This document shows positions 1-12,646 of a stretch of 12,646 nt of DNA, piece after piece; position 1 is the stretch's first letter, and every line of letters begins with the position of its first letter. The position numbers and the translations under genes were made by a program. The stretch is from IMG/VR virus record IMGVR_UViG_2531839662_000020; one strand, given 5' to 3'. Below the pieces are notes generated by a model. The model saw only the letters and a list, made by a program, of their open reading frames with translations. It was not told the DNA's origin and did not search any database. The DNA is from a virus. Its lineage: Duplodnaviria; Heunggongvirae; Uroviricota; Caudoviricetes.

Positions 1-474
1 AGTTTGCTCCTGCCATAACGTGAAGAAGCAATGACCTGGTGGTCCGTGACTTCCCTACGCTGGCATTATCCAGATCAGGTGATACGGGTATTTCTTACTG
101 ATTTTTGTTATCAGTTGATAATTAATAAGTTTTTCAGCAAACAAGAATTAAAAACTTCAAAACTGACCACACAACTGACCACACATTTTGTTGAAGCTCT
201 ACGAACAAAGACGAACAATAACAAACAAAAGGGAAATTTGCTGGCAGTTTTGCTTAACCGTTATCATTTTTCGGCTATCCGTTATCAAGCTGGTGGATGA
301 TCACGGATAACCCGTTATGGGAATCCCCATATCGGCATCATGCCCACCAGCATGAAGTATTTTTCGCGGATGTAAAAATTTGACGGGGCGGGCGGTCCCA
401 TAAGCAATGGGGGGGTAGGGATTCCGCTCCCCCCCCCTCCCGAATGCAATTTTTCTTATATATATACAAAACAG

Positions 475-629
475 TGCGGGTTATGCGGGTTAGCGGGTTA
501 TCTTCGCGTGCTAAGTATTTTTTATTCTTTAATATCAATGCGTTAAAAAATGATATGTTTGAATATTAGCCAAAACGTAACCCGCAAGACATTCAAAATA
601 ACCCGCAAATACCCCCCAAATAACCCACA
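475..629. repeat. Iteron cluster B: 3 tandem TGCGGGTTA repeats, AT-rich spacer, 3 inverted TAACCCGCA copies at about 21-bp phasing
   Basis: Direct copies at 475-483, 484-492 and 493-501. AT-rich stretch 502-577. Inverted copies at 578-586, 599-607 and 621-629 (last one degenerate, TAACCCACA). Same 9-mer as cluster A at 9086-9219. Confidence 0.7.
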
Positions 630-915
630 ACCCCATCAGGAAAATGGGGCCAGTGATGCCACCGAACGGCTGAATCTGGTAACGTTCTGTTGCCTGGTTG
701 CAGTTTGCGGGTCAGCAATACTGACGCACAAAGTTAGCCGTATGTGGCTGTGCGTCCACCAGCTACGCCGGAATGGGGTATTCCGTTTCAACGGAACAGG
801 TATGACGAATATGATCGCACCTTCTCCCGAAAACGGGTTTGCCTGTTTCGGGAAAACGGGCACATGAAGCTGCATAGACATTTTCACTATTCAGGATCTG
901 GCGGGGGAGTTTCTC

Positions 916-1050
916 AATTTCCACCGTTGGTGGAAATTAAACGAATACAGCGAGTTAGGACAAGGTGACTAATGGTCACTCTGTTGCTGCGTCACCATAT
1001 TGATGATCCAGCCCTGTAGTCGCGCCACTTTTCCACCAATGGTGGAAAAG
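916..1050. repeat. Pair of near-identical 23-bp palindromes (10-bp arms, 3-bp spacer)
   Basis: AATTTCCACC-GTT-GGTGGAAATT at 916-938 and CTTTTCCACC-AAT-GGTGGAAAAG at 1028-1050. Related dyads nearby: GTGAC-TAATG-GTCAC at 965-979 and CCCCC-AAT-GGGGG at 1073-1085. Confidence 0.6.
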
Positions 1051-1191
1051 CCCACAGCAGGCCGCCCAGCCTCCCCCAATGGGGGATTGTGGAAGAATCA
1101 ACGGGTTAGGCCTTAATCATCTGCGTAATCATAAGTAATCATAATGTTCATTCATCCAGCGCAATTTTGCGTTATCGGGAATATCAGCAAG

Positions 1192-1476
1192 TTACCGCCG
1201 CAACCGCTCCGGCTTCTTCCAGTGGTAAGTTATTTTTTCCTTCTCCCGGTACATCTCCACGCGGCGACGATATGACAACAACTCCAGAACTCTGATCCGT
1301 ATGTCGCGCATATCCACGCCGTTAAGCTCAATACCGTCACGGCGCATCACCTCAGCCACCACACGCGCGTAATTTTCGGCTATCACGCTGTCCGGCTGCG
1401 TGGCCTCCTGTTTGCCTGCTTCCTGGCTGATTCCGGTAATGCGGCGGATTATTTTTAGTAGTTCGGTTTCGCTCAC
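1192..1476 (-). CDS. Hypothetical protein, 94 aa, last gene of the packaging operon
   Basis: ORF from track with GTG start 5 nt after the large terminase stop, same strand. Arg/Glu-rich and probably helical. No family recognised. Next in-frame Met is 43 codons in. Confidence 0.45.
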   Translation of the reverse strand: MSETELLKIIRRITGISQEAGKQEATQPDSVIAENYARVVAEVMRRDGIELNGVDMRDIRIRVLELLSYRRRVEMYREKEKITYHWKKPERLRR

Positions 1477-1481
1477 TCTCG

Positions 1482-3143
1482 TTATACCCCATCAAACGCC
1501 GCAAGCCGCTCTTTGTGGCTGTCGCTCATATCGAATGCAAATTCCTCATGTTCTGCCTGGAATGTGCCAAACGCCATCAGCGCCGCAACGCTCGGGTCTA
1601 TCTTGTTGGATGATTTTTTCTTGTTCGGCTTGATATTGGCGTTCGCGTCACTCTGCATCACAACATTACTCATTGACCAGGCCAGCACCGGATCGCCACG
1701 ATGCACAATCACCTTCCGGTTAACAAAAACTTCGAACGATTTCGCCGCCGGACTGAAACGAAGGTATGTTTGCGGGAACGGCTCCACCTCAAATCCTGCC
1801 CCCTGTAGCTGCGTCCTCAGGTGCGTGGCGTTCCATGTATCGAAGCCCACCAGCCTGATATTGAAATTCTCTGCATCCGCCATGATGTCATCACGGATAC
1901 GGTCATAATCAATGCAGTCACCCGGTGTTGTGCGTATCCAGCCCGCCTTTACCCACTGGCGATAGATGGCGCGGTTTTTATTGGCGGGGTTCTGTAGCTG
2001 AAACTCCGGCAGATAGTGACGGGAAACCAGCATAATCTTTTTACCGACCGGAAAGGCATAGCACACGCTGGAAATATCGCTGGTTGATGATAAGTCCAGC
2101 CCCGCGTAGCACTCCTGCCCGTATAAATCCGCCTCCGCGAACGTTCCGGCGCACTCCGCCCATGCACCGTTACCCATCCACGGCGTGGCCCCCTGACACC
2201 AGATATTGAATCGCTTAGTGAGCATTTCCACCCACTGCGACGGAATACCCCGCGCTTTCTGGATGGTTGAGGCCAGTTTTTCACGATCGACGGAAACATC
2301 GATATTGGGATTCGCCTTTATCCACATCGCCGGATCGTCAACCTCGCTTTCATCATCCAGCTCGTAAATCAGCACGAACATGGATTCGTTCACCTCTTCA
2401 CCATCCAGTATCTGGCAGCAATAGTCGTAGTGTTGTTTACAGGCTGAAACAACGTTGCTCCCCGATGTGGTGATGGCAAATAATAACCCCTCCGGACGCG
2501 CCCCCATTCCCAGTTCAAGCGCGGAATAAACCCCGTTGTCAGGGTGCAGGTGATATTCATCCACAATGGCAAGACTCGGGTTTGTACCTTCAATGGTTGC
2601 CGCTTTTGCTGCCAGTGGCTTTAACAGGCTGTTGGTTTTCGGGTGTATCACCTTGTGTGCCTGAATATTTACCCGCTTTCGCAACGGTCGGGATAAAAGG
2701 CACATCTGACGCGCATCATCAAACACGATCCGCGCCTGATCACGACTCACGGCGGCGGTGTAAATATCCTGCTGCCCGTTTTCCATAACCAGAAACCAGT
2801 TAGCCAGGATAGCGGCGACCGTGGATTTGGCATTTTTTCGCGGCACTTCAATGAATGCGCTGGTGTATTTGCGCCGTCCGGTGGCCTTAACCTTAAAGCC
2901 CAGGATGCACGCAAAGGCGAACTGCTGCCACGGCTCCAGCTCAATGGGGCTACCGCGCATTGCGCCTTTTACGTGCGGACACACCCTGGAAAAGGCAATA
3001 AACCGCTCCACGACCTCCGGATCGAACGTGTAAAGGGGGTTTTCAAGGTCAGAAAAATACCGTTTAACGGCCTGTTTCAGTCGTTTACAGGCCGTAATTT
3101 TGCCGTTTTTTACGCCTTCTGCGTACTCATGCCAGGCGGTCAA
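1482..3143 (-). CDS. terL: Terminase large subunit (Terminase_1-like)
   Basis: 553-aa ORF with LEPWQ...F motif and P-loop-like VPRKNAKST near the N-terminus, then a nuclease-type C-terminal half. Apparent TTG start preceded by GAGGA. Overlaps the small terminase by 17 nt. Confidence 0.88.
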   Translation of the reverse strand: MTAWHEYAEGVKNGKITACKRLKQAVKRYFSDLENPLYTFDPEVVERFIAFSRVCPHVKGAMRGSPIELEPWQQFAFACILGFKVKATGRRKYTSAFIEVPRKNAKSTVAAILANWFLVMENGQQDIYTAAVSRDQARIVFDDARQMCLLSRPLRKRVNIQAHKVIHPKTNSLLKPLAAKAATIEGTNPSLAIVDEYHLHPDNGVYSALELGMGARPEGLLFAITTSGSNVVSACKQHYDYCCQILDGEEVNESMFVLIYELDDESEVDDPAMWIKANPNIDVSVDREKLASTIQKARGIPSQWVEMLTKRFNIWCQGATPWMGNGAWAECAGTFAEADLYGQECYAGLDLSSTSDISSVCYAFPVGKKIMLVSRHYLPEFQLQNPANKNRAIYRQWVKAGWIRTTPGDCIDYDRIRDDIMADAENFNIRLVGFDTWNATHLRTQLQGAGFEVEPFPQTYLRFSPAAKSFEVFVNRKVIVHRGDPVLAWSMSNVVMQSDANANIKPNKKKSSNKIDPSVAALMAFGTFQAEHEEFAFDMSDSHKERLAAFDGV

Positions 3144-3483
3144 GCTCGTCCTCTTCCTCTGTTTCCGGTGGATTTCTGCGGCGACTTACCGGGTCAAAAC
3201 CCAGCAAAGAAGCCATTTTGATCATTATTCTTTCCGCGTCAGCCTTTGCGCTCAGGGCGGGGTTTCTGCTCTCGCTGCCCTGACTGTTAACAATGCTGAA
3301 CCCGCGCGTGGCAAGGTCTTCGACGGCTTTGCGGTATATGGAGTAGTTAACGCAATATAGCTCCAGATTGCTCCAGTCGGCGGGGGTAAGGTCTTCCCGT
3401 CCGGAAAGCTGGCGCGATTTTTCCTTCCACTGCCTGACCGCGATTTCATCCAGGTAAGCGGGGGCTTTTGGTGGTCTTGCCAT
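3127..3483 (-). CDS. terS: Terminase small subunit, P27 family-like
   Basis: N-terminus MARPPKAPAYLDEIAVRQW is typical of P27-type small terminases and the length is about 118 aa. The longer track ORF (to 3624) is rejected as an N-terminal extension. Sits immediately upstream of terL. Confidence 0.75.
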   Translation of the reverse strand: MARPPKAPAYLDEIAVRQWKEKSRQLSGREDLTPADWSNLELYCVNYSIYRKAVEDLATRGFSIVNSQGSESRNPALSAKADAERIMIKMASLLGFDPVSRRRNPPETEEEDELDRLA

Positions 3484-3771
3484 GTTCTCTTTTCGCCCAA
3501 TTATTTTCAAAAAAAATCCCGTGCACAAAAATTTGAGGAGGCGGTCGGTGTCCGGCAGGGACGGTTTTGTCCTGAAAACCTCCCCCACCCCCTCTGACGG
3601 CCTCACCAGCGATTGCGAAAACATTCCATGACCTCGCGGTCACGGTCGGTTAATTGCTTCGCTGTGGTGCGTTCTGTGCGCCCTGTCCTGTTGGCTTTGT
3701 GCCCTGTCTCCTGTGTCTTCCATAAGTCACGCTGCCTTATCAGTCCACGTATCAGCCTGTTTTGCTCCTGT
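3484..3771. other. Candidate cos / terminase recognition region (HNH-TerS intergenic)
   Basis: 288-bp non-coding gap between the HNH gene and terS, the position cos occupies in HK97-like phages. Contains two 15-bp direct repeats (3676-3690 and 3698-3714), a C-rich tract at 3578-3600 and an A-tract at 3509-3530. Cut site not determinable from sequence. Confidence 0.3.
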
Positions 3772-4212
3772 TCAGTCATCATCGCCATACATCCAGTCGT
3801 TACGGTGTGCCGCCCGTTCTTCCTGCTCGCGATACATGCCCGCCTTACGGTTCGCTTTCGTGGCTGGATCTTCCCGTGTCGTCTTACGGTTGTGGCACGT
3901 CTGGCACAATGCCTGGTGATTCCACTCAGGCCAGAAGAGAACATCACCGCCGCCATTGATGGGAATGATGTGATCCACCACAAGAGCTGGCGTATAAATC
4001 CCCTTAGCCAGACAACGCACGCATAACGGGTTTTTGCTCAGGTACAGGGCGCGGTATTTGTCCCACTGTCGGGAATACCCGCGCGCGCGGCGGTGTCCCC
4101 GTCTGGCATCCTCTGCACGCCATGCAGCCCGCCTGTGCTCTTCACACTTTCCGGACTTCACGCGCTTATTACAGCCCGGCTCAGTGCAGCGCCTTAATGG
4201 TTGCCACGGCAT
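3772..4212 (-). CDS. HNH endonuclease (packaging-associated)
   Basis: 146 aa with CxxC...VDHIIP...N.Q.LC..CHNRKT HNH/zinc-finger motif. Start overlaps the connector stop (TGATG). Located just upstream of terS as in HK97-like packaging modules. Confidence 0.85.
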   Translation of the reverse strand: MPWQPLRRCTEPGCNKRVKSGKCEEHRRAAWRAEDARRGHRRARGYSRQWDKYRALYLSKNPLCVRCLAKGIYTPALVVDHIIPINGGGDVLFWPEWNHQALCQTCHNRKTTREDPATKANRKAGMYREQEERAAHRNDWMYGDDD

Positions 4213-4510
4213 CAGTACACCCCCACATCACGATAAACCGACCAGAGCGCAGAAATAGCCATAGGCAGTTCAGACTGCTCCACAGGTGAAACCGCTTCCC
4301 TGTTCTCGTACAGGAAAGCGATGTACATCAGGCAACCAACACGTATTGCCGGGGTAAATTCCAGCCCGTCTTCAAAACGTTTCCCGATATGCTTCTGGCA
4401 GGCTTCCAGCGCCGCATCGGTATACATTTTCAGAAGTTCGCCTTCTCCGGAAAAGTCATCAAGGCGAAGATGTGCCCTGACTTCATCAGGTGTAATTTTG
4501 TCTTCACTCA
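4212..4510 (-). CDS. Head-tail connector protein, gp6-like
   Basis: About 99 aa from MSEDKITPDEVRAHLRLDD, which resembles gp6-type connector N-termini. Overlaps the portal 3' end by 7 nt. The 128-aa track ORF is trimmed to this ATG. Confidence 0.65.
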
Positions 4511-5718
4511 TCTTTTTCACCTTTAATTTCCACAGTCTGCTTCCATGCCTGGCTGAACTCGTCGCCACCTTCACGCGGCGGCATTCCCTCACGCTCACGG
4601 GCTTCGTTCGGATTCATGATCCCGTTCTTAATCCCTTTCTCATACGTGGCGTAACGTTCAGTAGGTGTGGCGCGCAGTAAATCGGCTGAATCAAACTCAA
4701 CCAGATAACGGGTACCAGGTACGGGAGAAGCCACCAGCAAAGCGGCCTTGATTTGCTGTTCGAAGTTCGCCAGCCACGGACGCATTGTCATAGTCAGAAA
4801 CGCGCGGCTTGCCTCACTGAAATTGCTGTAGGTGCTGTTGCTGTATTCCTGCAGAAAAATCGGCGACACGTTGAACATCCGGGCGATGTCTTCAATGGAG
4901 AAGCGACGGGAGGCCAGCCATTCCGCATCCTGGTTACTCATCCCCAGTTGCTTGTAATCCATGCCCCCTTCAAGGATTGGCGTTTTTCCGGCATTTTTCG
5001 CCCCCTTGTAGCGTTCCAGTGCGTCTAATGCCTGTTTACCTTTCACGCCGTCCAGCCATTCGCCTGACGTGATAATCCCTGCCGCCATCATGCCATCTTT
5101 CATAATGCTGGCTCCGTGACGCTGTTGAGCAAGGCCAAGCCCCAGCGCCTCACGGCAAATCGTGATGGGGGAGCGTCCCAGAAAGCCATCATCCGAGGCA
5201 TAGCGGAGATGCAGAACTTCTTCCTGTAAATACGTGCGCACCGTTCCTGTACAGGGTTCGGTGATGGTATAGCGGTATTTGTGTGCGCCTGTGCGTTCCG
5301 GTACAACACACCCCGGCGCATAAGGATGAAGTGATTTTGGCTGACCGTCCCGCCCCCATTCAATAACCGCATAGGCGTTACCGTTCAGCAGGCAGTGACG
5401 CATCATTGTGCGTTTAAACTGGTAAGGTGTCTGGCACGAATTAGGCTGCTCATTCAGCAGAATATCTACCGGATGACTGTCCAGCCATTCCCGCGCCTCC
5501 CTGCCCTTGTCATTACGTACCAGATACAGATAACACGGCATCGTGGCCACCGCCTCAGCGATGACGGAAACCGCGTTCATCACTGCGGGCAATGATTCAG
5601 CCGTCCCGGCAGAAACATATTCTCCGGATCCGGTATTCGGTACGCCGGACAGCACCAGAAAATCATCAATGGACAGGTTACGTTGCTCGCTTTTTTTACG
5701 ACTAAAAGGCCACCACAT
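4504..5718 (-). CDS. Portal protein, HK97 family-like
   Basis: About 404 aa when started at the ATG at 5718 (MWWPFSRKK...), 1 nt after the protease stop. Size and position between protease and connector fit a portal. The upstream 73 codons of the track ORF overlap the protease gene and are rejected. Confidence 0.8.
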   Translation of the reverse strand: MWWPFSRKKSEQRNLSIDDFLVLSGVPNTGSGEYVSAGTAESLPAVMNAVSVIAEAVATMPCYLYLVRNDKGREAREWLDSHPVDILLNEQPNSCQTPYQFKRTMMRHCLLNGNAYAVIEWGRDGQPKSLHPYAPGCVVPERTGAHKYRYTITEPCTGTVRTYLQEEVLHLRYASDDGFLGRSPITICREALGLGLAQQRHGASIMKDGMMAAGIITSGEWLDGVKGKQALDALERYKGAKNAGKTPILEGGMDYKQLGMSNQDAEWLASRRFSIEDIARMFNVSPIFLQEYSNSTYSNFSEASRAFLTMTMRPWLANFEQQIKAALLVASPVPGTRYLVEFDSADLLRATPTERYATYEKGIKNGIMNPNEAREREGMPPREGGDEFSQAWKQTVEIKGEKDE

Positions 5719-5719
5719 A

Positions 5720-6280
5720 TCACAACCCCGCCAGCTCTGCCCAGCGATGACGATTATTTCCTGCCGGGCGTAATTCAGGGTGCTGTGCAAACAACGAACG
5801 GTGGGCAATCTCCACGCCAGATTCGGGATAAGCAGGCATCGACGTGATCGTGATTTCCCTGAGTTCTGCAGCGGTAACAGTACGCAGATACGGTTTTTGC
5901 GCGATATTCCACTCTTCGCATAATGCGCGAAAGCCAAAGCTCATCCCTGTAATGTCGCCACGCTCCACCAGCGTAAGCACATCTTTTCCAAGCTGGGTAT
6001 CAGGCGGTGTCAGTTCAAAACGTAGCCCGGTGTTGTCCTCAGTCAGTACCAGAGTGCCGGATTTGGTGCGCCCCAGCAGTTGGGTATAGTCATGCTCATA
6101 CAGGCAGCGCACATCATTACCCGCCGCCAGATAGTCAGCAAAAGCCCCCGGCGTGAACTGTTCGCGGAATTCGTCCCAGATAATTTCTGAAAGGCTGTTC
6201 CAGCGAACGGCATACCCCACCAGCTTTTTATTGCTGGCGGTCAGTTCAGATGTGCGGATTTCAAAATCGGTGTTTTTCAT
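5720..6280 (-). CDS. Prohead protease, HK97 family (S78-like)
   Basis: 186 aa with GGAG RBS 8 nt upstream of ATG. Sits between capsid and portal. Family recognised by eye from overall sequence and size. Confidence 0.8.
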   Translation of the reverse strand: MKNTDFEIRTSELTASNKKLVGYAVRWNSLSEIIWDEFREQFTPGAFADYLAAGNDVRCLYEHDYTQLLGRTKSGTLVLTEDNTGLRFELTPPDTQLGKDVLTLVERGDITGMSFGFRALCEEWNIAQKPYLRTVTAAELREITITSMPAYPESGVEIAHRSLFAQHPELRPAGNNRHRWAELAGL

Positions 6281-6296
6281 CGGTGTACTCCATAAA

Positions 6297-6322
6297 GCTG
6301 AAAAAGGAGGCCGCAGCCTCCT
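6297..6322 (-). terminator. Intrinsic terminator-like hairpin between capsid and protease genes (possible attenuator)
   Basis: On the minus-strand transcript: 7-bp GC-rich stem AGGAGGC / GCCUCCU (6305-6311 with 6316-6322), 4-nt loop, followed by UUUUU (6300-6304). Lies directly after the capsid stop at 6335. Confidence 0.4.
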
Positions 6323-6334
6323 CCTTACTCATGA

Positions 6335-7504
6335 CTAGCCAGCTTTCATTTCCAGAATTTTGATGGCGTTTGAATCCACCACACCACCGCCCAGATATTT
6401 ATCCGTGTGGACCTTGTAGAATCCGGGTTCAGTAATGTTGTCCGGTCGGGTGCGAATCCCTGTTACATGATCAACGATGAAATAACCACGACTGAAATCG
6501 CCAACCGCTAGCGGTGCTTTTCCTGCGCCGATGTCCGGCATGGACTCCAGGCAGAAAACAGGACGACCAAGCAACATATCCGGCGCACCTTCTTTAAGGC
6601 TGTCGCGCCAGATATAATCGCCATTCTCATTTTTCAGCTTCTGTAGTGTCCCTGCCGTGCCCGAGTTCATCACCCAGACGGCATTTTTGCGGTATTTCGC
6701 TTTCAGCTTGTAGAGAATGTCGATCAGTTCGTCCGCTGTAATGGCGGTTCCACTTGCCGCTACCACTTTTTCAATGGTGCCAAAAGCGCGGGTTTTGTCA
6801 CTGGTCGCCGCACGGGTGTAAGCCATGAAGCCTTTCGGCTTGCCGTTACCGTCGCCATTAACAAAATCATCCTCTTCGGTGCTGGCGAACGTGTCGGCAA
6901 TTTCGGAGGATAACCAGCCCAAAATATCCACCTCTGAAAAATCCAGGATTTCCTGCGTGGTTTTCGGGTAGGCGTAGATCTGATTCAGCTTGATGGTTAC
7001 ACGTTCAATTTTCGGGGTGTTGGTTTCACTACGTGCGCTGCCTTCTGTGCCTCGTCCTACAGTTGCGCCGCCAGTGGAAACCAGTTTCTGAAACTCATTT
7101 GATTTTGCGGTCTTCACGGTCGCGATCACGCGCATAACACTGTCATCCTGTAGCTGGCGCATGACTTCGCGATCAAGCTCAGGAATTACGGTATATCCGC
7201 CATCCCTGCCGCTGTCAGTGCTGGTGGACAGTGATCGCACATCTCCGGTTACGATGTAGTTACGCAATTCATCAGATGATAATTTCTGGATGCCCGTTCC
7301 TGGCTTGCTGCGTTCTTCATCAGCCACAGACTCGAGGCGGTAAATTTCTGTGTCGAGGGAATCGGCTTTTGCACGCAGTTCATCAAACTGTTTGCCCTCG
7401 TCATCGTTCAGGCTGCGGTTTTCACTGTCGGCTTTTTCCAGCAGGGATCGCATCTGGTTTTTCAGGGCGGTTTTTTGCTGGCGGAGTTCGATTAATTTCT
7501 TCAT
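6335..7504 (-). CDS. Major capsid protein, HK97 fold, with N-terminal delta/scaffold domain
   Basis: 389 aa. N-terminal about 100 aa is charged and coiled-coil-like (delta domain), followed by an HK97-like MCP body. First gene after the candidate late promoter. Confidence 0.85.
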   Translation of the reverse strand: MKKLIELRQQKTALKNQMRSLLEKADSENRSLNDDEGKQFDELRAKADSLDTEIYRLESVADEERSKPGTGIQKLSSDELRNYIVTGDVRSLSTSTDSGRDGGYTVIPELDREVMRQLQDDSVMRVIATVKTAKSNEFQKLVSTGGATVGRGTEGSARSETNTPKIERVTIKLNQIYAYPKTTQEILDFSEVDILGWLSSEIADTFASTEEDDFVNGDGNGKPKGFMAYTRAATSDKTRAFGTIEKVVAASGTAITADELIDILYKLKAKYRKNAVWVMNSGTAGTLQKLKNENGDYIWRDSLKEGAPDMLLGRPVFCLESMPDIGAGKAPLAVGDFSRGYFIVDHVTGIRTRPDNITEPGFYKVHTDKYLGGGVVDSNAIKILEMKAG

Positions 7505-7653
7505 GAAGGTTTTCTCGTATTGGTTAAGATTCAGGACGTGAAACCAACACGGAGGGAGCGCCGCCCGACACTCTCGGCATCTCGCAGATCAACCCGGCAT
7601 CGCGCAGGGGGTCAGGCGGCATTGTGGCGGCTCACGTCTGAGTGCCACACGCC

Positions 7654-7726
7654 AACATATACATAAAAATCAGTATGTAAACATCAGCCAGAATCACCGA
7701 ACAACCTGGAACAACCACGAACAAAT
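7654..7726 (-). promoter_or_regulatory. Candidate activator-dependent late promoter for the capsid operon
   Basis: On the minus strand: -35 TTTACA (7676-7681), 16-bp spacer, -10 TATGTT (7654-7659). Upstream are three direct repeats GGTTGTTC / GGTTGTTC / ATTTGTTC with 10-bp phasing (plus-strand GAACAACC at 7699-7706 and 7709-7716, GAACAAAT at 7719-7726). Confidence 0.35.
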
Positions 7727-7741
7727 AATTTACAAAACCTG

Positions 7742-7770
7742 AAAAAAAGACCTGGAGAAAATCCAGGCCT
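7742..7770 (-). terminator. Rho-independent terminator ending the early/replication operon
   Basis: On the minus-strand transcript: stem 7762-7770 pairs with 7748-7756 (9 bp, one mismatch), loop 7757-7761, then a U7 run (plus-strand A7 at 7742-7748). Lies 9 nt after the stop of the 82-aa gene. Confidence 0.65.
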
Positions 7771-7778
7771 TTATCGCT

Positions 7779-8027
7779 TTATTGTTTCACTGGATCCCGC
7801 ATTCTGCGTCTTATTTTCCACAGATATTCGATCATCGCTTCCACCTGCTCACGATTGGTTGCGAAAATTTCCCCGGTCAGTGAGCTGCGCAGAAAATCAT
7901 GATGATCCACAACAAACAACGCATCGGAAGAAAGCAGACGGCGATATTTTTTTGCTGTCGTGGTTTCCAGATCATCAAAACCATGAAACTTTTTATGTTG
8001 CTGGACTTCTTCAAATGTCACTGGCAT
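7779..8027 (-). CDS. Hypothetical protein, 82 aa, translationally coupled to the ProQ/FinO gene
   Basis: ATG start at 8027 overlaps the upstream gene's 3' end by 10 nt. No family recognised. Followed by the terminator. Confidence 0.5.
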   Translation of the reverse strand: MPVTFEEVQQHKKFHGFDDLETTTAKKYRRLLSSDALFVVDHHDFLRSSLTGEIFATNREQVEAMIEYLWKIRRRMRDPVKQ

Positions 8028-8560
8028 GTATCCCCCTTTGCTGCCCGGCGCTGGCGCTTGTGCTTCTCATTCAGCGCCATCAGCCGCGTTTCTGCCTCCT
8101 GCTGTTCCTGTGGTGTCACTTCCCCACATGGCTGGCCTTTCAGGTCGTATCGTACCCCACCAGCAACCAGGGCGCGGTAATAGCGCGGAGACTGCGCATA
8201 AGATGCCAGCGTCGCACGTAATGCCCCCGGCCCGAATGCCAGCCCCCTGACGGCGAGATCCTGCATCAGGTCGTCGAATATCCCCACCTTAAGCGGCTTC
8301 GGTGCTTCCCTGTTGAATAAGTCAGGCCACATCTCAGTGAGGCGGTTAACGCGCCTGCGGTTTTTGCGCTGGCGTTTGGTCATATGCCGCCACGGTGTCA
8401 CCCCTGTGGGCTGCCCTTTGCGGCTCTGCTGTGCGTTCTGATTGCCGGGTATCACTTTATGCGCCGATGTGGTTTTATCCCGCTCTTGCGCCGCCTGCGT
8501 CGTTTTCTGCGGCGTGCCGTAAATGCCTTTCGGTTTTCGGTTAATGGTCAGCTTTGTCAT
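8018..8560 (-). CDS. ProQ/FinO-domain RNA-binding protein with basic N-terminal extension
   Basis: C-terminal two-thirds (WPDLFNREAPKPLKVGIFDDL...LRATLASYAQSPRYYRALVAGGVRYDLKGQPCGEVTPQEQQEA) matches the ProQ/FinO N-terminal domain pattern recalled from E. coli ProQ. N-terminal about 70 aa is Lys/Arg/Gln-rich. AGGGGAAGG RBS. Confidence 0.75.
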   Translation of the reverse strand: MTKLTINRKPKGIYGTPQKTTQAAQERDKTTSAHKVIPGNQNAQQSRKGQPTGVTPWRHMTKRQRKNRRRVNRLTEMWPDLFNREAPKPLKVGIFDDLMQDLAVRGLAFGPGALRATLASYAQSPRYYRALVAGGVRYDLKGQPCGEVTPQEQQEAETRLMALNEKHKRQRRAAKGDTCQ

Positions 8561-8596
8561 GCCTTCCCCTGTAATTACTCTGTTCGCTGTTGTGAA

Positions 8597-9022
8597 TTAA
8601 AACGGTATGTTATCCCCGTACAGGTCATCGTGCTGGCCTGTCTGTTGTTTTGCCCTGTTCAGTGCGTCAGTGGCCTGCCCCTGTTGGCCTTTTTTGCCGC
8701 CCGGTCGCGCCGTTCTCGCACTGATTACGCTGTCTGCGATGACCTGCCAGCCCTGCCGCGTTTCGCCGTTCTGCCCTGTCCACTGGCTTACCTGCATGTT
8801 ACCCGCCACGTTCACCAGTTCGCCTTTGCGGTGTTTTGCCAGTGCGTCGGCCTGTCTGCCAAACGCCAGGACGGATAACCACATCGTCGCCGTTCCGTCA
8901 TCTGCCTGGCTGCATGGCAGGGGAACCGCCATACTCGCCATCGCCATTTGTGTTCCCTTGCTGGTGGTCTTTAACTGCGGGTCAGCCACCAGCCGCCCGT
9001 AAGCCGCTATCTGTGCTGTCAT
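8597..9022 (-). CDS. ssb: Single-stranded DNA-binding protein (SSB)
   Basis: 141 aa. OB-fold-like N-terminal region (GRLVADPQLK...), Gly/Gln-rich linker, and acidic C-terminal tail DDLYGDNIPF resembling the SSB DDDIPF tip. Confidence 0.8.
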   Translation of the reverse strand: MTAQIAAYGRLVADPQLKTTSKGTQMAMASMAVPLPCSQADDGTATMWLSVLAFGRQADALAKHRKGELVNVAGNMQVSQWTGQNGETRQGWQVIADSVISARTARPGGKKGQQGQATDALNRAKQQTGQHDDLYGDNIPF

Positions 9023-9085
9023 GCTGTCTGCTCTCCGGTTTTAACGTTGATGGTTACGCTTGTTTACACCCTTACGGTGAAATTC

Positions 9086-9219
9086 TGCGGGTTATAATCG
9101 CACTTTTGCGGGTTATAACTGCCGTTTTGCGGGTTACGTGCGGGTTATTGATTTCCTTTTTATTCATACAGTTAATGCACTTATATACATGATAACCCGC
9201 ATAACCCGCATAACCCGCA
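9086..9219. repeat. Iteron cluster A: 4 direct TGCGGGTTA(T/C) repeats (spacing 21/21/11 bp), AT-rich spacer, 3 tandem inverted ATAACCCGC
   Basis: Direct copies at 9086-9095, 9107-9116, 9128-9137 and 9139-9148. AT-rich stretch 9149-9191. Inverted tandem copies across 9192-9219. Lies in the 220-bp gap between the primase-helicase stop and ssb start. Confidence 0.75.
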
Positions 9220-9241
9220 ACTTTTCACCTCACACAGGGGG

Positions 9242-11365
9242 TTAATCTTCTGCCTCAGGCTGGAACATCAGCACGTAAAAAACATGCTGCTTCCCCCCAA
9301 TTTTGCCGAGCGCCTTTTTCTTGTAACGGCGATCGTTACCCGCTTCCAGCATTCCGGCAGCACTCAACGCGCGGGCAAAGTGAGACGGATTAAATCCCTG
9401 TGCTATCTCACCCTCAAATACATGCGGGAACGTGTAAAAACGGAACTCGTCATCTTCGTTTCTGATACTCCCCTTTCTGTATCCGGCAAGTTCTTTAATC
9501 GGTAAATCACGCTCGTCGGTATTGGGCCACGGAAGGTATCTGCTGAATCCGAACGACGCTAAAAAAGCTTCTGCCTGTTCAACCATCTGTTTAAATTCCC
9601 TGTTACCCGTGCCGAACTCCTTCACCCAGGCATTAAAATTATGCTGTATGGCATCGCGGCATTCCTGCTCATCCCAGCCAGTAACATGACCTGAAAGCAC
9701 AAGCGCGGCCTCCAGTATGGCAAATCGCTCCCCCACACGGTGAACCTGTTCGCCGTAGCTCTCCGGTATCAGGTTGCGCCACCGCTCACGGCATGTCCTT
9801 ACCGTGTCCTTTGCCTCCTGCTGGTGTTCTGCCAGCCATTTAACCCACTCACGACCCGCCGCCCCGTGATTTTCTGTCCAGGCATCCTTTAACGCGTCTG
9901 CGTGCGCCTTTCCGGTGCTGTATTCGTGAAATTGCGTGGCTTTTTCCATCGGAACGTTAAGCAGGCGGACAAGCTGCCCCGCTTTGACTTTTATCCCCTC
10001 CGTTTTGAGGAATGTCTCAACGTCCATTTCTCCGGTGCTGATTGCCACCGTGCGCCAGTGTTTGATCTCCCTGTTGCCGCCGTCCTTCGCCCCCTGTAAT
10101 TTCCCCGAACCGTTAAACAGCGTATAGGCTGACGTGGACACCTCCCGCGCGTTTCCGGCCTGGCCTATTTCATCCAGGGGTAAAAGCCCGTCATTGTGTG
10201 CCTCTGCTTCGTTGGCGATACCTAACGCTGTGCCGTACCAGGTCAGCCGCTGCGCGTCCGGCTCTCCCCATAAACTTGATGCGATGTTCTGTGTGGTGGT
10301 TTTCCCTGCCGATGACTGTTCGAAAAGATGTACCCCGAAGCCGTCAGCGCCCACCAGCCCGATTAATGGTGCGGATAACGATACCGCCACACCCAGCATC
10401 ATGGACGGATTACCACCAGCCAGCCGCGCAACGATATCGCGCCAGCCCTCCGCCGTTCCTGCCACGGAATAGCCATTAACAGCAGCCGTTTTTCCGGTAA
10501 ACAGGACTGGCTTTTCGCAATCACCAATGACCGAACCGTCCGGCATGATGTACGCGCCAAAATGCCAGCCCGTTGTTGTGCTTAACTGCCATTCCTCATG
10601 GCTTCCGCTTAACTGCATCCAGTCAGCCAGGATAGCCCTGTATTTACCGTTGGTTGTTACGTTCAGTCCGTGGTCTTTCAGCAACCGCCAGCCGTCACGG
10701 TCGCCAATGCCACCGCACGGAACCGCCATTGTGATGACTTCATGGTTTGCTAATTTTTTCCAGCGCATCACGCGGTAATGCTCTTTACCGATTGTCCCCG
10801 TTCCCAGTAGTTCAAGCGGGGAACATAACCACGTCTCAGGCCGGATAATTTCGCCTGACTGCTTATCCACTTTTGGCGTTACCCAGAAAACACCATCGGC
10901 GCGACTTTCAACGCGGGGCTTTAATTCATCATCGCCCTGGATTTCTGTGATTTTTTTCTTTAAGGGCAACACCAGACTTTCCCCGCGCTCGTATTCGTCT
11001 TTGAGGCGAGGCAACTGGTCGGATAAATCCGCCGGGCTGATGTCAGTTATCCCCGCGTATTCGTATACGGTCTTCACGCCAGCCACAGCCAGCAACGTGA
11101 CGATCTGTGTAAGGCTACGTTCAGTGATGTGCCCTGCGCGGTAAACACGCACACACTGACGGCTATCATCAATAATTTGATAACCGGTAATATCTTTCAG
11201 GTGTTCATCTGACAGAACGACAGGCGGCACATTGTCGGCGGCAATATGCTTACCTGCCCATTCCTGCCACTCTTTCGCATGGCTCCACGCATCACTACCC
11301 GCAAAGATGATAACCTCCGTCATTTTGTCGGCTGGCTGGTGCTTTAAGTTTGGTGCGCGCTTCAT
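9242..11365 (-). CDS. Replicative primase-helicase (toprim-like N-terminus, P-loop NTPase core; DUF927-like)
   Basis: 707 aa. Walker A-like SSAGKTTT in the central region. Overall resemblance to satellite and prophage primase/helicase replication proteins. ATGA overlap with the upstream small gene. Followed by iterons. Confidence 0.8.
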   Translation of the reverse strand: MKRAPNLKHQPADKMTEVIIFAGSDAWSHAKEWQEWAGKHIAADNVPPVVLSDEHLKDITGYQIIDDSRQCVRVYRAGHITERSLTQIVTLLAVAGVKTVYEYAGITDISPADLSDQLPRLKDEYERGESLVLPLKKKITEIQGDDELKPRVESRADGVFWVTPKVDKQSGEIIRPETWLCSPLELLGTGTIGKEHYRVMRWKKLANHEVITMAVPCGGIGDRDGWRLLKDHGLNVTTNGKYRAILADWMQLSGSHEEWQLSTTTGWHFGAYIMPDGSVIGDCEKPVLFTGKTAAVNGYSVAGTAEGWRDIVARLAGGNPSMMLGVAVSLSAPLIGLVGADGFGVHLFEQSSAGKTTTQNIASSLWGEPDAQRLTWYGTALGIANEAEAHNDGLLPLDEIGQAGNAREVSTSAYTLFNGSGKLQGAKDGGNREIKHWRTVAISTGEMDVETFLKTEGIKVKAGQLVRLLNVPMEKATQFHEYSTGKAHADALKDAWTENHGAAGREWVKWLAEHQQEAKDTVRTCRERWRNLIPESYGEQVHRVGERFAILEAALVLSGHVTGWDEQECRDAIQHNFNAWVKEFGTGNREFKQMVEQAEAFLASFGFSRYLPWPNTDERDLPIKELAGYRKGSIRNEDDEFRFYTFPHVFEGEIAQGFNPSHFARALSAAGMLEAGNDRRYKKKALGKIGGKQHVFYVLMFQPEAED

Positions 11366-11676
11366 TTTGCCTTTCCCCGTTCACGAATAATTTCACGTAC
11401 TGCCTTAATGCGTTCCATTCCTGTAACGCGCATGATTCTGTCGATGTCGCTTAATTCTGCTGGTGGTGCTTTACTTACCAAGGTGAACTCCCTGTCAAAG
11501 CGCATATGTGACGACACGCAGGGATGCGCATAACCTTCGCGGATATAGGTCACACGAAAATCATCGACGGTTTTGATCGTTATCGTGCTGCCGTATTTAT
11601 CCTGGAAAATATCGCCGGGGCGGATTTCAGGCCGAGCGGGGCCGCTGGCAGTAAAGCCAGAATTTTTCTTTTTCAT
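11362..11676 (-). CDS. Hypothetical protein, 104 aa
   Basis: ATG with GGAG upstream. Stop overlaps the primase-helicase start (ATGA). Basic C-terminus. No family confidently recognised. Confidence 0.55.
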   Translation of the reverse strand: MKKKNSGFTASGPARPEIRPGDIFQDKYGSTITIKTVDDFRVTYIREGYAHPCVSSHMRFDREFTLVSKAPPAELSDIDRIMRVTGMERIKAVREIIRERGKAK

Positions 11677-11681
11677 GTTTT

Positions 11682-11900
11682 TTACTCCAGAGGCAGCTTT
11701 TTAGCGGCGAGCTCAATATCAGATGTCAGAGAAACCTGTGTATTTGCCAGGTCTAACAACAAAGAAATAAGAATTTCTTCTCTGCTATCGGATTTATCGG
11801 TGCTAAGGCTGTTCATCCACATATTGACGACTTCCCTGATTTTTTTCGCAGAGTGCAGGGCTTCAAATGCCAGGTCTTCAATATCATGTTTATTTCGCAT
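11682..11900 (-). CDS. Hypothetical protein, about 72 aa (start uncertain: 11900, 11915 or 11930)
   Basis: Track ORF 11682-11930 has a TTG start. The in-frame ATG at 11900 is preceded by a G-rich SD-like run. Overlaps the 3' end of the upstream gene. Predicted helical. Confidence 0.45.
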   Translation of the reverse strand: MRNKHDIEDLAFEALHSAKKIREVVNMWMNSLSTDKSDSREEILISLLLDLANTQVSLTSDIELAAKKLPLE

Positions 11901-12252
11901 AATCGCCCCCGCCATTTTCACAATCAGCAATCAGGATGGCTTTTGCCTCATTCAGCGCCATATCAGCACTAAATTGCATAACAGCCAGTGAGTGAGGAAC
12001 GAAAGCCCCGGCATATTCTGTTTCGCTGGTGGCCTCAATGGTAATCACACGCGGTTGTGCCGTGCTCAGGGCGATAAAACGCCAGATGTATTTATTCAGG
12101 TTGTGCAAGTCCCGCCCTTGCGGGTGTGTGGTATGATTTAACATAGCTACCTCGATAATCTTGCTATCGTTGGTGGTTAGAAGCCCGGTTAGTGTTAGCG
12201 CACTGCCGGGTTTCGTCGTTTGTATTTCAATAAAACCATTGGTGTGTTTCAT
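11890..12252 (-). CDS. Hypothetical protein, 120 aa, first gene of the early operon (alternative start at 12144 gives 84 aa)
   Basis: 3' portion of the 247-aa track ORF. The part upstream of 12252 is antisense to the plus-strand gene and low-complexity, so is rejected. ATG at 12252 lacks an SD; the ATG at 12144 has GAGGT 5 nt upstream. Confidence 0.45.
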   Translation of the reverse strand: MKHTNGFIEIQTTKPGSALTLTGLLTTNDSKIIEVAMLNHTTHPQGRDLHNLNKYIWRFIALSTAQPRVITIEATSETEYAGAFVPHSLAVMQFSADMALNEAKAILIADCENGGGDYAK

Positions 12253-12340
12253 GTTATTTTGGAGTGAAACACACGTCAAGCCTTTTTTGTATTTCTTTTT
12301 TGTGTATACTGAAACACACCAAATTTGAGGAGTTTCAGTT
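12241..12340. promoter_or_regulatory. Divergent control region with three copies of TGAAACACAC(C/G)
   Basis: Copies at 12241-12251 (inverted, overlapping the ATG at 12252), 12264-12274 and 12310-12320. The first two form an 11-bp-arm inverted repeat with a 13-bp spacer. Plus-strand -10-like TATACT at 12305-12310 and GAGGAG RBS at 12326-12331. Confidence 0.5.
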
Positions 12341-12646
12341 ATGGCGACTACCAACAAAAACGCTAAATCACAATTGACCACCGTCAGAGTCCCCCACGAT
12401 GTTATGGAGGGCATGGAATCCGTAAAACTGGACGGCGAAAGCAACGCCGGATTCATAGTAACCGCCATGCGCGGTGAGATCGCCCGCCGCCAGGCAGAAG
12501 GAAGCGGAGAAAATCCCCTGGTTTCTTCGCTCGATGCACTGGCGCAGGTGGAAAAAATTGGAGTCAAGGCTGCCGAGGAGATCGGGCAACTCGTCGCCGT
12601 CGCGCGTGAAGAACTCCAGCGCCGCAAGGCCAAAGAATCAGAATAA
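12341..12646 (+). CDS. Putative small DNA-binding regulator (possible ribbon-helix-helix fold)
   Basis: 101 aa. Strong GAGGAG RBS 9 nt upstream of ATG. Only plus-strand gene, divergent from the early operon. N-terminal LTTVRVPHDVMEGMESV fits a beta-strand-then-helix RHH pattern; fold assignment is tentative. Confidence 0.6.
   Translation: MATTNKNAKSQLTTVRVPHDVMEGMESVKLDGESNAGFIVTAMRGEIARRQAEGSGENPLVSSLDALAQVEKIGVKAAEEIGQLVAVAREELQRRKAKESE

What the first reader, a model, noticed from the sequence alone, without database searches (positions are those of the whole stretch)
12241..12340. Thrice-repeated 10-bp motif in the divergent control region, overlapping both start regions
TGAAACACAC occurs three times. 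Two copies form an 11-bp-arm inverted repeat spanning the start of the first early gene. The third overlaps the -10 and start site of the plus-strand regulator promoter. A CTGAAAC ... GTTTCAG inverted repeat (12309-12338) also encloses the regulator's SD. This looks like an operator set for a genetic switch between the divergent regulator and the early operon.
Basis: seen in the sequence. Interest (0 to 1): 0.55.

Follow-up and report, generated by a model that had tools for sequence, protein, structure and literature searches.

The report
Repressor binding sites in satellite switch
The thrice-repeated 10-bp motif is real and is most likely a set of three binding sites for the small neighbouring DNA-binding protein, which would make that protein a candidate repressor in a group of phage satellites where no repressor has been identified.

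Summary
**Observation: confirmed.** TGAAACACAC occurs exactly three times in the window, all within 78 bp (12242-51 minus strand, 12265-74, 12310-19).

**Context.** The window is about 80% of a capsid-forming PICI-type satellite island of E. coli. It is nearly identical to an island in strain UMNF18.

**Conservation.** I compared 45 related loci from about 20 genera of Enterobacterales.
- All keep the same promoter scaffold.
- Each site has the form (G/C)TG-N5-CAC. The N5 core matches at all three positions within a locus but differs between loci.

**Which protein binds.**
- The core tracks residues 12 and 14 of the predicted beta-strand of the adjacent 101-aa YlcI/YnfO protein.
- The core does not track AlpA or the Icd-like protein.

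**Positions.**
- O2 fills the spacer of the minus-strand early promoter.
- O1 abuts that promoter's -10.
- O3 abuts the -10 of the ylcI promoter.

This suggests repression of both promoters. No binding or expression data exist.

**Correction.** The early gene starts at ATG 12144, not 12252. The inner repeat pair therefore brackets a -10 hexamer, not a start codon.

**Extra finding.** A conserved structured antisense RNA (about 12145-12222, plus strand) lies opposite the early gene's ribosome site.

**Closest analogue.** The phage P22 immI region.

The parts
12239..12251 (-). O1: operator copy 1. It reads TGAAACACACCAA on the minus strand (exact 10-mer 12242-12251). It starts at the last base of the minus-strand -10 hexamer and covers the expected transcription start.
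   Evidence: An equivalent site lies 24-37 bp from O2 in nearly all of the related loci. Its orientation varies by class.
12264..12276 (+). O2: operator copy 2, GTGAAACACACGT (N5 core AAACA 12267-12271). It lies in the 17-nt spacer of the minus-strand promoter, directly next to the -35.
   Evidence: It sits at a fixed offset of -75 from the ylcI ATG in 40 or more loci.
12309..12322 (+). O3: operator copy 3, CTGAAACACACCAA (N5 core 12312-12316). It overlaps the last two bases of the plus-strand -10 and the expected ylcI transcription start.
   Evidence: It sits at a fixed offset of -30 from the ylcI ATG in 40 or more loci.
12251..12279 (-). P(-): predicted sigma-70 promoter of the early (Icd-like, primase, capsid) operon. 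-35 TTGACG (12279-12274), 17-nt spacer, -10 TAACAT (12256-12251).
   Evidence: Consensus scan. In 45 loci the -35 is TTGA(A/C)G. The spacer is 17 nt in 38 of 45. The -10 keeps T1 (44), A2 (43) and T6 (44) while its middle positions vary. The transcription start is not mapped.
12305..12310 (+). P(+): -10 hexamer TATACT of the predicted ylcI promoter. No good -35 is present.
   Evidence: Near-invariant in 35 aligned loci and in the conservation profile. It fell below the threshold of the consensus scan. The transcription start is not mapped.
12341..12646 (+). ylcI: 101-aa YlcI/YnfO-family protein. The predicted ribbon-helix-helix domain is residues about 9-52 and a long C-terminal helix is residues 64-100. 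Proposed operator-binding repressor.
12309..12338 (+). Inverted repeat CTGAAAC / GTTTCAG enclosing the ylcI Shine-Dalgarno sequence (GAGGAG 12327-12332). Function unresolved; it may be a partial fourth site.
   Evidence: The outer CTG/CAG is near-invariant and the inner pairs are 50-70% complementary. 72.7% of cells are paired against 65.7% in shuffles (0 of 500) and 19-42% when slid.
11890..12144 (-). First early gene (Icd-like, 84 aa), read from ATG 12144 with GAGG at 12153-12150.
   Evidence: NCBIfam phage_ICD_like. Five of six annotated E. coli relatives start at this ATG.
12145..12222 (+). Candidate cis-antisense small RNA opposite the Icd-like leader, SD and start codon. It has two hairpins and a U-rich tail. 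Its own -10 is TATGAT at 12132-12137. It would add a second layer of control to the same early operon.
   Evidence: RNAalifold found 24 pairs, 16 with compensatory changes. 96.2% of cells pair on the plus strand (137 G.U) against 80.9% on the minus strand. The only Rfam match is SymR, below threshold.

Best explanation
The three copies (O1, O2, O3) are binding sites for the adjacent 101-aa YlcI/YnfO-family protein, a ribbon-helix-helix (RHH) DNA-binding protein.

**Site and recognition.** Each site is an 11-13-bp pseudo-palindrome, (G/C)TG-N5-CAC. The two-stranded beta-sheet of a YlcI dimer would read the N5 core, mainly through residues 12, 14 and the invariant Arg16.

**Effect on the early promoter.** O2 fills the spacer next to the -35 of the minus-strand early promoter. 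O1 begins at the last base of its -10. Bound YlcI should exclude RNA polymerase and keep the Icd-like, replication and capsid operon off.

**Effect on its own promoter.** O3 begins at the last base of the -10 of the ylcI promoter. The protein should therefore also limit its own synthesis.

**Second lock.** A cis-antisense small RNA opposite the Icd-like ribosome-binding site would act on the same operon after transcription.

**Shown here:**
- the repeats and their fixed positions;
- conservation of the promoter elements;
- the predicted RHH fold;
- covariation between protein and DNA.

**Inferred:**
- binding itself;
- the sign of regulation;
- the oligomeric state;
- how helper phage or AlpA overrides the repressor.
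For: **Conserved layout.** The three exact copies cluster within 78 bp. In loci from about 20 genera a locus-specific 9-mer recurs at -30, -75 and about -100/-112 from the ylcI ATG.

**Punctate variation.** The N5 positions are the least conserved in the region. They lie between near-invariant GTG/CAC flanks and promoter hexamers.

**Covariation with the YlcI beta-strand.**
- Loci with an identical beta-strand decapeptide differ by 0.27 mismatches per 9-mer (92 pairs).
- Loci with different beta-strands differ by 3.28 (811 pairs).
- A Mantel test on 17 representatives gave r 0.59, p 5e-5.
- The 11 combinations of residues 12 and 14 correspond almost one-to-one with the motif classes. Changes at the alternate residues 13, 15 and 17 do not alter the motif. 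This is what an RHH beta-sheet reading DNA should show.
- The E. coli O157:H7 island and the Xenorhabdus loci share KSKKLEARVP and GTGTCAGCCAC although the rest of the protein differs.

**No coupling to other proteins.**
- L027 and L042 have 100% identical AlpA but different motifs.
- L001 and L006 have 97% identical AlpA but different motifs.
- L001 and L008 share the motif with 36% identical AlpA.
- L002 and L004/L006 have 93-94% identical Icd-like proteins but different motifs.

**Promoter geometry.** Conserved in 45 loci.
Against: - No binding, footprint, transcription-start or expression data exist for this family in the literature I could search.
- The beta-strand codons lie within 90 bp of the sites, so physical linkage contributes to the association. 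The punctate pattern and the residue-12/14 rule argue against linkage alone.
- The sites are dispersed, at 23-24 bp and 45 bp centre to centre. That is not an integral number of helical turns. Classical RHH operators usually have adjacent subsites.
- Published work on related islands shows AlpA is required for induction. Its overexpression alone triggers EcCICFT073 replication and is used to drive EcCIEDL933 reproduction. A master repressor must then be overridden somehow.
- I did not show that EcCICFT073 or EcCIEDL933 carry ylcI.
- P(+) has no recognisable -35.
Confidence: 0.7

Rival explanations
1. YlcI does bind the three sites, but it is not a repressor of the island's life cycle. It could activate the early promoter. 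It could merely autoregulate. Or it could act as an antitoxin-like local controller of the Icd-like division inhibitor, with no role in helper-dependent induction.
For: - The first gene controlled is an Icd-like protein.
- Published induction of related islands is explained by AlpA alone.
- O3 lies about 70 bp upstream of the minus-strand start, a position from which an activator could act.
Against: - O2 lies inside the promoter spacer and O1 lies at the start site in all 45 loci. Those are repressor positions, not activator positions.
- The gene is divergent from the Icd-like gene, not co-transcribed with it as in type II toxin-antitoxin pairs.
- The whole replication and capsid operon lies downstream of the same promoter.
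Confidence: 0.15
2. The repeats are bound by another factor and the association with YlcI is only linkage. Candidates are the island's AlpA-like activator, a helper-phage protein or a host protein.
For: - AlpA is the only experimentally established regulator of Gram-negative PICIs.
- The ylcI 5' end is physically adjacent to the sites.
Against: - The motif class is uncoupled from the AlpA sequence in many pairs: identical AlpA with different motifs, and 36% identical AlpA with the same motif.
- It is also uncoupled from the Icd-like protein.
- A host protein could not follow about 11 different cores within one species.
- Only the alternate, DNA-facing residues of the YlcI strand track the motif.
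Confidence: 0.06
3. The motif acts in RNA. Both divergent transcripts would begin with the same GAAACACACCAA, and CUGAAAC/GUUUCAG could fold around the SD. The repeats would then be a shared leader element for an RNA or an RNA chaperone such as the island's ProQ/FinO protein.
For: - O1 and O3 form a 13-nt perfect inverted repeat placed identically after the two -10 hexamers.
- The island encodes a ProQ/FinO protein and an antisense RNA.
- The SD-enclosing repeat shows some covariation.
Against: - In classes C, D, E and F, O1 is in direct orientation, so the two transcripts would not share a 5' sequence.
- O2 lies in a promoter spacer and would not be transcribed from either promoter.
- The 5' arm of the SD repeat overlaps the -10.
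- Predicted pairing between the antisense RNA and the ylcI leader is no better than with shuffled targets: mean z -0.2 over 44 loci.
Confidence: 0.04

Closest known systems
Phage P22 immI region (Mnt and Arc RHH repressors, divergent Pant/Pmnt promoters, sar antisense RNA). Comparison from established knowledge.
   Same: - A small RHH repressor is transcribed divergently from the operon it controls.
- Its operators overlap back-to-back promoters.
- The repressor limits its own synthesis.
- A short cis-antisense RNA lies opposite the ribosome site of the controlled gene.
- YlcI has an RHH domain plus a long C-terminal helix, as Mnt does.
   Different: - There is no detectable sequence similarity: the PDB sequence search found nothing.
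- There are three dispersed single sites rather than one symmetric operator.
- The controlled operon encodes an Icd-like protein, replication functions and a capsid module, not an antirepressor.
- The host element is a satellite island, not a phage.
Stl/Rpr master repressors of Gram-positive PICIs (SaPIs)
   Same: - The repressor gene is divergent from the replication and packaging operon of a phage satellite.
- It acts in the intergenic region (description in PMC6092414).
   Different: - From my own knowledge, Stl is a much larger helix-turn-helix protein with no relation to YlcI.
- Stl is lifted by binding a helper-phage protein. Nothing here shows how YlcI would be lifted.
- AlpA is the known trigger in Gram-negative islands.
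Phage P1 immI (c4 antisense RNA - icd - ant) and SymR/SymE of E. coli
   Same: - An Icd-type gene, or a toxic gene, has its translation start covered by a small structured RNA.
- As for SymR, the RNA's promoter lies within the first codons of the target gene. Both points are from established knowledge.
- SymR is the only Rfam hit.
   Different: - The SymR match scores 33.6 bits against a gathering score of 61, so membership is not established.
- The Rfam scan reported no match other than SymR and TPP, so nothing resembling the P1 c4 RNA was found.
- P1 c4 acts from within the same transcript, not as a true cis-antisense RNA.
Plasmid RHH repressors CopG and omega (heptad repeats)
   Different: In those systems the sites are adjacent or tandem. 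Here the sites are 23-45 bp apart and each sits at a defined promoter element.

Membership tests
Ribbon-helix-helix (Arc/MetJ/CopG) DNA-binding superfamily | Beta-strand, helix, helix topology of about 45 residues | tested here: met
   AlphaFold models show an extended segment at 11-18 and helices at 19-28 and 35-52. pLDDT is 85-94 over residues 11-50.
Ribbon-helix-helix (Arc/MetJ/CopG) DNA-binding superfamily | Structural similarity to solved RHH proteins | tested here: met
Ribbon-helix-helix (Arc/MetJ/CopG) DNA-binding superfamily | Significant sequence match to a curated RHH family | tested here: not met
   No Pfam family reached its threshold. The only match was PSK_trans_fac, below its cut-off. 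The PDB profile search found nothing. Only NCBIfam YlcI_YnfO_N matches.
Ribbon-helix-helix (Arc/MetJ/CopG) DNA-binding superfamily | Dimer with an antiparallel beta-sheet inserted in the major groove of repeated sites | not testable with these tools
   Only monomers could be modelled. Indirect support: the motif core tracks alternate strand residues 12 and 14.
Capsid-forming PICI (phage satellite) | Integrase, AlpA-type regulator, primase/replicase with adjacent iteron origin, own capsid, protease, portal, connector, HNH, TerS and TerL, no tail genes, about 15 kb | tested here: met
   RefSeq annotation of the near-identical UMNF18 island. DUF927 primase, SSB and ProQ by Pfam. Iterons at 9086-9215. 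The island measures about 15.8 kb between its ends. TerS and HNH are annotated as frameshifted in UMNF18.
Capsid-forming PICI (phage satellite) | Induction and transfer by a helper phage | not testable with these tools
Published only for other islands.
Stl/Rpr-type master repressor of PICIs | Divergent from the replication/packaging operon, with sites in the intergenic region | tested here: met
   Gene order in the seven annotated E. coli loci and the conserved upstream layout in the genome-contig loci. Binding is inferred from covariation only.
Stl/Rpr-type master repressor of PICIs | Repression lifted by a helper-phage protein; deletion gives helper-independent induction | not tested
   No data. 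No YlcI homologue was found in 50,697 phage records.
Type II toxin-antitoxin RHH antitoxin | Co-transcribed with, and binding to, its toxin | tested here: not met
   ylcI is divergent from the Icd-like gene. In the UMNF18 island it is followed on its own strand by a 64-aa ORF and a terminator.
SymR antitoxin RNA (Rfam RF01809), for the neighbouring antisense RNA | Score at or above Rfam's gathering threshold | tested here: not met
   33.6 bits against 61. The architecture is the same: a cis-antisense RNA starting just behind the target's start codon.

The most novel reading that the evidence does not exclude
YlcI-family RHH proteins may be the missing master repressors, or immunity determinants, of a large group of Gram-negative phage satellites, both classical and capsid-forming PICIs. 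They would come in a dozen or more specificity classes, each set by two beta-strand residues and a matching 5-bp operator core. Several islands could then coexist in one genome without cross-regulation. Helper induction through AlpA or an unknown anti-repressor would work by overriding YlcI. A SymR-like antisense RNA would add a second lock on the Icd-like gene.
Probability: 0.4. Interest if true: 0.75.

Novelty: new variant of a known kind. Interest (0 to 1): 0.6.

Why it matters
**The open question.** For Gram-negative PICIs the only established regulator is the activator AlpA. [quoted passage not shown]

**What this offers.**
- A divergently transcribed repressor with operators over both promoters would give these satellites a Stl-like or Mnt-like switch.
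- The protein family is so far only a name. One recent survey lists YlcI/YnfO as a 'prophage-associated' accessory protein.

**Why it is testable.** The natural series of about 11 matched protein and operator classes forms a ready-made recognition code for an RHH beta-sheet. Two-residue swaps could test it directly.

**Possible use.** The matched classes could serve as orthogonal small repressors.

**Prevalence.** The control region covers at least 80% of the query in 429 of 5,426 complete E. coli genomes. It also occurs across Enterobacterales.

Tried and rejected
- **AlpA as the binder.** Rejected. Motif class and AlpA sequence are uncoupled.
- **Icd-like protein as the binder.** Rejected for the same reason.
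- **The SD-enclosing inverted repeat as an mRNA hairpin.** Unlikely. Its 5' arm overlaps the conserved -10, and the inner pairs are complementary in only 50-70% of loci. It stays unexplained.
- **Trans pairing of the antisense RNA with the ylcI leader.** No signal: mean z -0.2 over 44 loci.
- **Origin iterons, pac site or att site.** Rejected. The iterons are a different repeat, ATAACCCGC, at 9086-9215 and 475-620. The att core lies at the island ends.
- **Homologues in phages.** None in 50,697 records at E 1e-3.
- **Sequence match to solved structures.** None.
- **Rfam.** Nothing reached a gathering score in the window.
- **Literature.** Searches for YlcI/YnfO, RHH with PICI, and Icd-like with antisense RNA found no functional study. 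Subscription-only papers are not covered.
- **Identity of the O157:H7 island.** I first took L049 for EcCIEDL933. It is a roughly 9-kb classical PICI-like island between cspD and clpS. I did not establish whether EcCIEDL933 or EcCICFT073 carry ylcI.

Full report
**1. What the window is**

The right end of the window (11850-12646) is 100% identical to the chromosome of E. coli UMNF18. Overall the window matches that record at 99.9% (1-7748) and 99.1% (7739-12646). A roughly 545-bp segment of the record is absent from the window.

The annotated UMNF18 island lies between thiM and rcnR. Its genes, in order, are:
- an integrase, a 239-aa protein and a 74-aa AlpA-like helix-turn-helix protein, all on the minus strand;
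- a 64-aa ORF and a YlcI/YnfO-family gene on the plus strand;
- then a long minus-strand operon: Icd-like, an 82-aa protein, DUF4222, a 707-aa DUF927 primase, SSB, ProQ/FinO, major capsid, prohead protease, portal, connector, HNH, TerS and TerL. Pfam agrees for several of these.

This is the gene set of a capsid-forming PICI, a phage satellite (cf-PICI preprint). The window ends at the stop codon of ylcI. The finding lies in the 196-bp region between ylcI and the Icd-like gene.

**2. The observation**

TGAAACACAC occurs exactly three times in 12.6 kb, all within 78 bp:
- 12242-51 on the minus strand;
- 12265-74 on the plus strand;
- 12310-19 on the plus strand.

The outer two copies extend to a perfect 13-nt inverted repeat. 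The inner pair has 10-nt perfect arms.

In 20,000 dinucleotide-preserving shuffles of the intergenic region, 0.45% gave any 10-mer in three copies. CTGAAAC/GTTTCAG (12309-15 / 12332-38) is also present and encloses GAGGAG.

**3. Where the early gene starts**

RefSeq calls the Icd-like gene of the UMNF18 copy from ATG 12252. In five of six E. coli relatives the annotated gene starts at the equivalent of ATG 12144 and encodes 65-68 aa. ATG 12144 has GAGG 5 nt upstream. ATG 12252 has no such sequence.

ATG 12252 also overlaps the -10 hexamer described below. The inner repeat pair therefore brackets a promoter element, not a start codon.

**4. Conserved scaffold, variable cores**

I collected loci from two sources:
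- seven E. coli loci;
- 40 loci from one genome per species across Enterobacterales. These include Photorhabdus, Xenorhabdus, Erwinia, Serratia, Yersinia, Hafnia, Pectobacterium, Proteus, Morganella, Raoultella, Citrobacter and others.

In nearly all of them, ylcI is preceded by the same layout.

*The minus-strand promoter:*
- the -35 is TTGA(A/C)G in 45 of 45 loci;
- the spacer is 17 nt in 38 of 45;
- the -10 keeps T1 (44), A2 (43) and T6 (44), while its three middle bases vary freely.

In the window these are TTGACG (12279-74) and TAACAT (12256-51). The consensus scan also picked them.

*The plus-strand promoter:* TATACT (12305-10) is near-invariant. No good -35 is present.

*The three sites.* A 9-10-mer recurs three times at fixed offsets from the ylcI ATG:
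- -30, directly after TATACT;
- -75, directly before TCAA, which is the -35 read on the other strand;
- -98 to -112.

The general form is (G/C)TG-N5-CAC. The flanks are near-invariant. The N5 core matches at all three positions within a locus, give or take a base, but differs between loci. Examples are AAACA, AAATA, AATCG, TCAGC, AACAC, GCACC, GATTC, GACTC, ATGCC and CTTAC.

The orientation of the first site is not conserved. It is inverted in the window's class but direct in several others. The functional unit is therefore the single site, not the inverted pair.

**5. Which protein reads the sites**

*Fold.* The 101-aa protein matches NCBIfam YlcI_YnfO_N (E 3.6e-19). It matches no Pfam family above threshold and no solved structure by sequence.

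AlphaFold gives an extended segment at 11-18, helices at 19-28 and 35-52, and a long helix at 64-100. The N-terminal 55 residues modelled alone gave a mean pLDDT of 85.

*Covariation.*
- Loci with the same strand decapeptide differ by 0.27 mismatches per 9-mer site. Loci with different strands differ by 3.28.
- A Mantel test on 17 representatives gave r 0.59, p 5e-5.
- If the strand is aligned to Arc by its Arg-x-Pro motif, residues 12, 14 and 16 should face the DNA. This alignment is my own inference.
- Arg16 is invariant.
- The 11 combinations of residues 12 and 14 correspond almost one-to-one with the motif classes.
- Changes at residues 13, 15 and 17 leave the motif unchanged. For example, LQVSV, LQLSV and IQFSV all go with GAACACCAC, and QLTTV and QLFTV both go with GAAACACAC.
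- The window's protein is 89-92% identical to those of L004 and L007. The differences are concentrated in residues 2-17, and the operators differ.
- An E. coli O157:H7 island and the Xenorhabdus loci share the strand KSKKLEARVP and the site GTGTCAGCCAC.

*No coupling to other proteins.* The motif does not follow AlpA:
- identical AlpA goes with different motifs (L027 and L042);
- 97% identical AlpA goes with different motifs (L001 and L006);
- the same motif goes with 36% identical AlpA (L001 and L008).

Nor does it follow the Icd-like protein.

*Caveat.* Linkage alone is a partial alternative, because the strand codons lie within 90 bp of the sites. It does not explain why only three 5-bp patches and the alternate strand residues vary inside an otherwise conserved scaffold.

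**6. How it most likely works**

- O2 occupies the spacer next to the -35 of the early promoter.
- O1 starts at the last base of that promoter's -10. In the window the sequence reads TAACAT|GAAACACACCAA.
- O3 has the mirror arrangement on the ylcI promoter: TATACT|GAAACACACCAA.

These are positions from which a bound protein excludes RNA polymerase. I therefore infer that YlcI represses both the early operon and its own gene.

The following are not shown: binding, the transcription starts, the oligomeric state, and the way induction overrides repression. The long C-terminal helix may join dimers, as in Mnt. Short 59-62-aa forms lack it.

Published work shows that AlpA is needed for induction of related islands. 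Overexpressing it alone triggers EcCICFT073 replication and is used to drive EcCIEDL933 reproduction.

In this island alpA lies upstream on the same strand as the early operon, with ylcI between them in the opposite orientation. A strong plus-strand terminator ends the ylcI-orf64 transcript before alpA. How the two regulators interact is open.

**7. A second control layer next to the finding**

Window 12100-12221 holds the 5' end of the Icd-like gene and its leader. It is about 95% conserved in more than a thousand E. coli genomes, including ones whose operator region is too different to align.

In 36 distinct sequences a two-hairpin structure followed by a U-rich tail is supported:
- 24 pairs, 16 of them with compensatory changes;
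- 96.2% of cells paired, against 83.5% in shuffles (0 of 500) and 32-47% when slid.

The structure holds on the plus strand (137 G.U pairs). It drops to 80.9% if read on the minus strand. A -10-like TATGAT (12132-37, with TGG before it) lies inside the first Icd-like codons.

This predicts a roughly 75-nt cis-antisense RNA (12145-12222) covering the SD and start codon of the Icd-like gene. The only Rfam match is SymR at 33.6 bits, below its gathering score of 61. I do not file it as SymR, although the architecture is the same.

**8. The SD-enclosing inverted repeat**

- The outer CTG/CAG is near-invariant.
- The inner four pairs are complementary in 50-70% of loci.
- There is some concerted change: Photorhabdus has ATGAAAC/GTTTCAT, and the AATCG class has CTGAATC/GATTCAG.
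- 72.7% of cells are paired, against 65.7% in shuffles (0 of 500).

Its 5' arm overlaps the -10, so it should not be in the ylcI mRNA. It may be a weak partial fourth site. I leave it unexplained.

**9. Comparison with what is known**

- **P22 immI.** From established knowledge this is the closest system by mode of action. It has RHH repressors Mnt and Arc, divergent overlapping promoters and the sar antisense RNA.
- **Stl/Rpr of Gram-positive PICIs.** This is the functional counterpart in satellites.
- **P1 immI.** It places an icd gene under a small RNA.

YlcI shows no sequence relation to any of these proteins. Its three dispersed single sites are unusual for RHH operators.

I found no functional study of YlcI/YnfO. 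For Gram-negative PICIs the literature says a global repressor is unclear. A recent preprint notes that the gene downstream of alpA is a variable region of unknown function in two cf-PICIs. That may be this module, but I did not verify it.

The module occurs in a capsid-forming island (this window) and in a roughly 9-kb classical PICI-like island of O157:H7. I did not establish whether the experimentally studied EcCIEDL933 or EcCICFT073 carry it.

**10. Verdict**

| Question | Verdict |
|---|---|
| Observation | Confirmed |
| Kind | New variant of a known kind: an RHH repressor and operator switch with cassette-like specificity classes |
| Why notable | Found in a group of satellites where no repressor had been identified |
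| Confidence that YlcI binds the sites and represses both promoters | 0.7 |

Noticed in passing
window 12132-12222 (+): Candidate cis-antisense small RNA opposite the SD and start codon of the Icd-like gene. Its own -10 (TATGAT 12132-37) lies inside the first codons. It has two hairpins and a U-rich tail, with strong covariation and a strand-specific G.U signal in 36 loci. The only Rfam hit is SymR, below threshold.
   Followed up: yes
window 9086-9215 and 475-620: Iterons GCGGGTTAT / ATAACCCGC lie in inverted groups of three around an AT-rich spacer, just downstream of the DUF927 primase gene. This is probably the island's replication origin. A second, similar set lies near the left end of the island.
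   Followed up: partly
window 35-126 (-) and L001 19581-19676 (-): The island is inserted inside the aptamer of the host thiM TPP riboswitch. The 3' half lies at the left junction (31.7 bits) and the 5' half at the right junction (20.3 bits). They share the core ATACGGGTATTTCT. The island-side sequence partly mimics the missing stem but lacks the CUGAGA motif, so thiMD control is probably altered in carriers.
   Followed up: partly
window 159-228 and L001 19472-19541: A 70-bp direct repeat (91% identical) lies just inside both ends of the island. It contains AACTGACCACAC twice and several ACGAACAA units. These may be integrase arm-type sites.
   Followed up: no
window 7739-7748 versus L001 11345-11887: A roughly 545-bp segment carrying a 168-aa hypothetical gene in the UMNF18 record is absent from the window. 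The window therefore comes from a closely related but different copy of the island. RefSeq marks TerS and HNH as frameshifted in UMNF18.
   Followed up: partly
window 11890-12040 (-): The C-terminal half of the window's Icd-like protein (84 aa) is unrelated to that of its 65-68-aa relatives. It overlaps the next gene (82 aa, 11682-11930), which suggests a frameshift or a recombination joint.
   Followed up: no
L001 17138-17167 (+): A strong intrinsic terminator (8-bp GC-rich stem followed by TTTGTTTTAT) ends the ylcI-orf64 transcript just before the convergent alpA-like gene.
   Followed up: no
L048 2500-2747: One E. coli relative (AR_0077, strand KSQTVAARVP, site GTGTTGAACAC) places its third copy next to the -35 instead of next to the plus-strand -10. 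This is an exception to the otherwise fixed layout.
   Followed up: no
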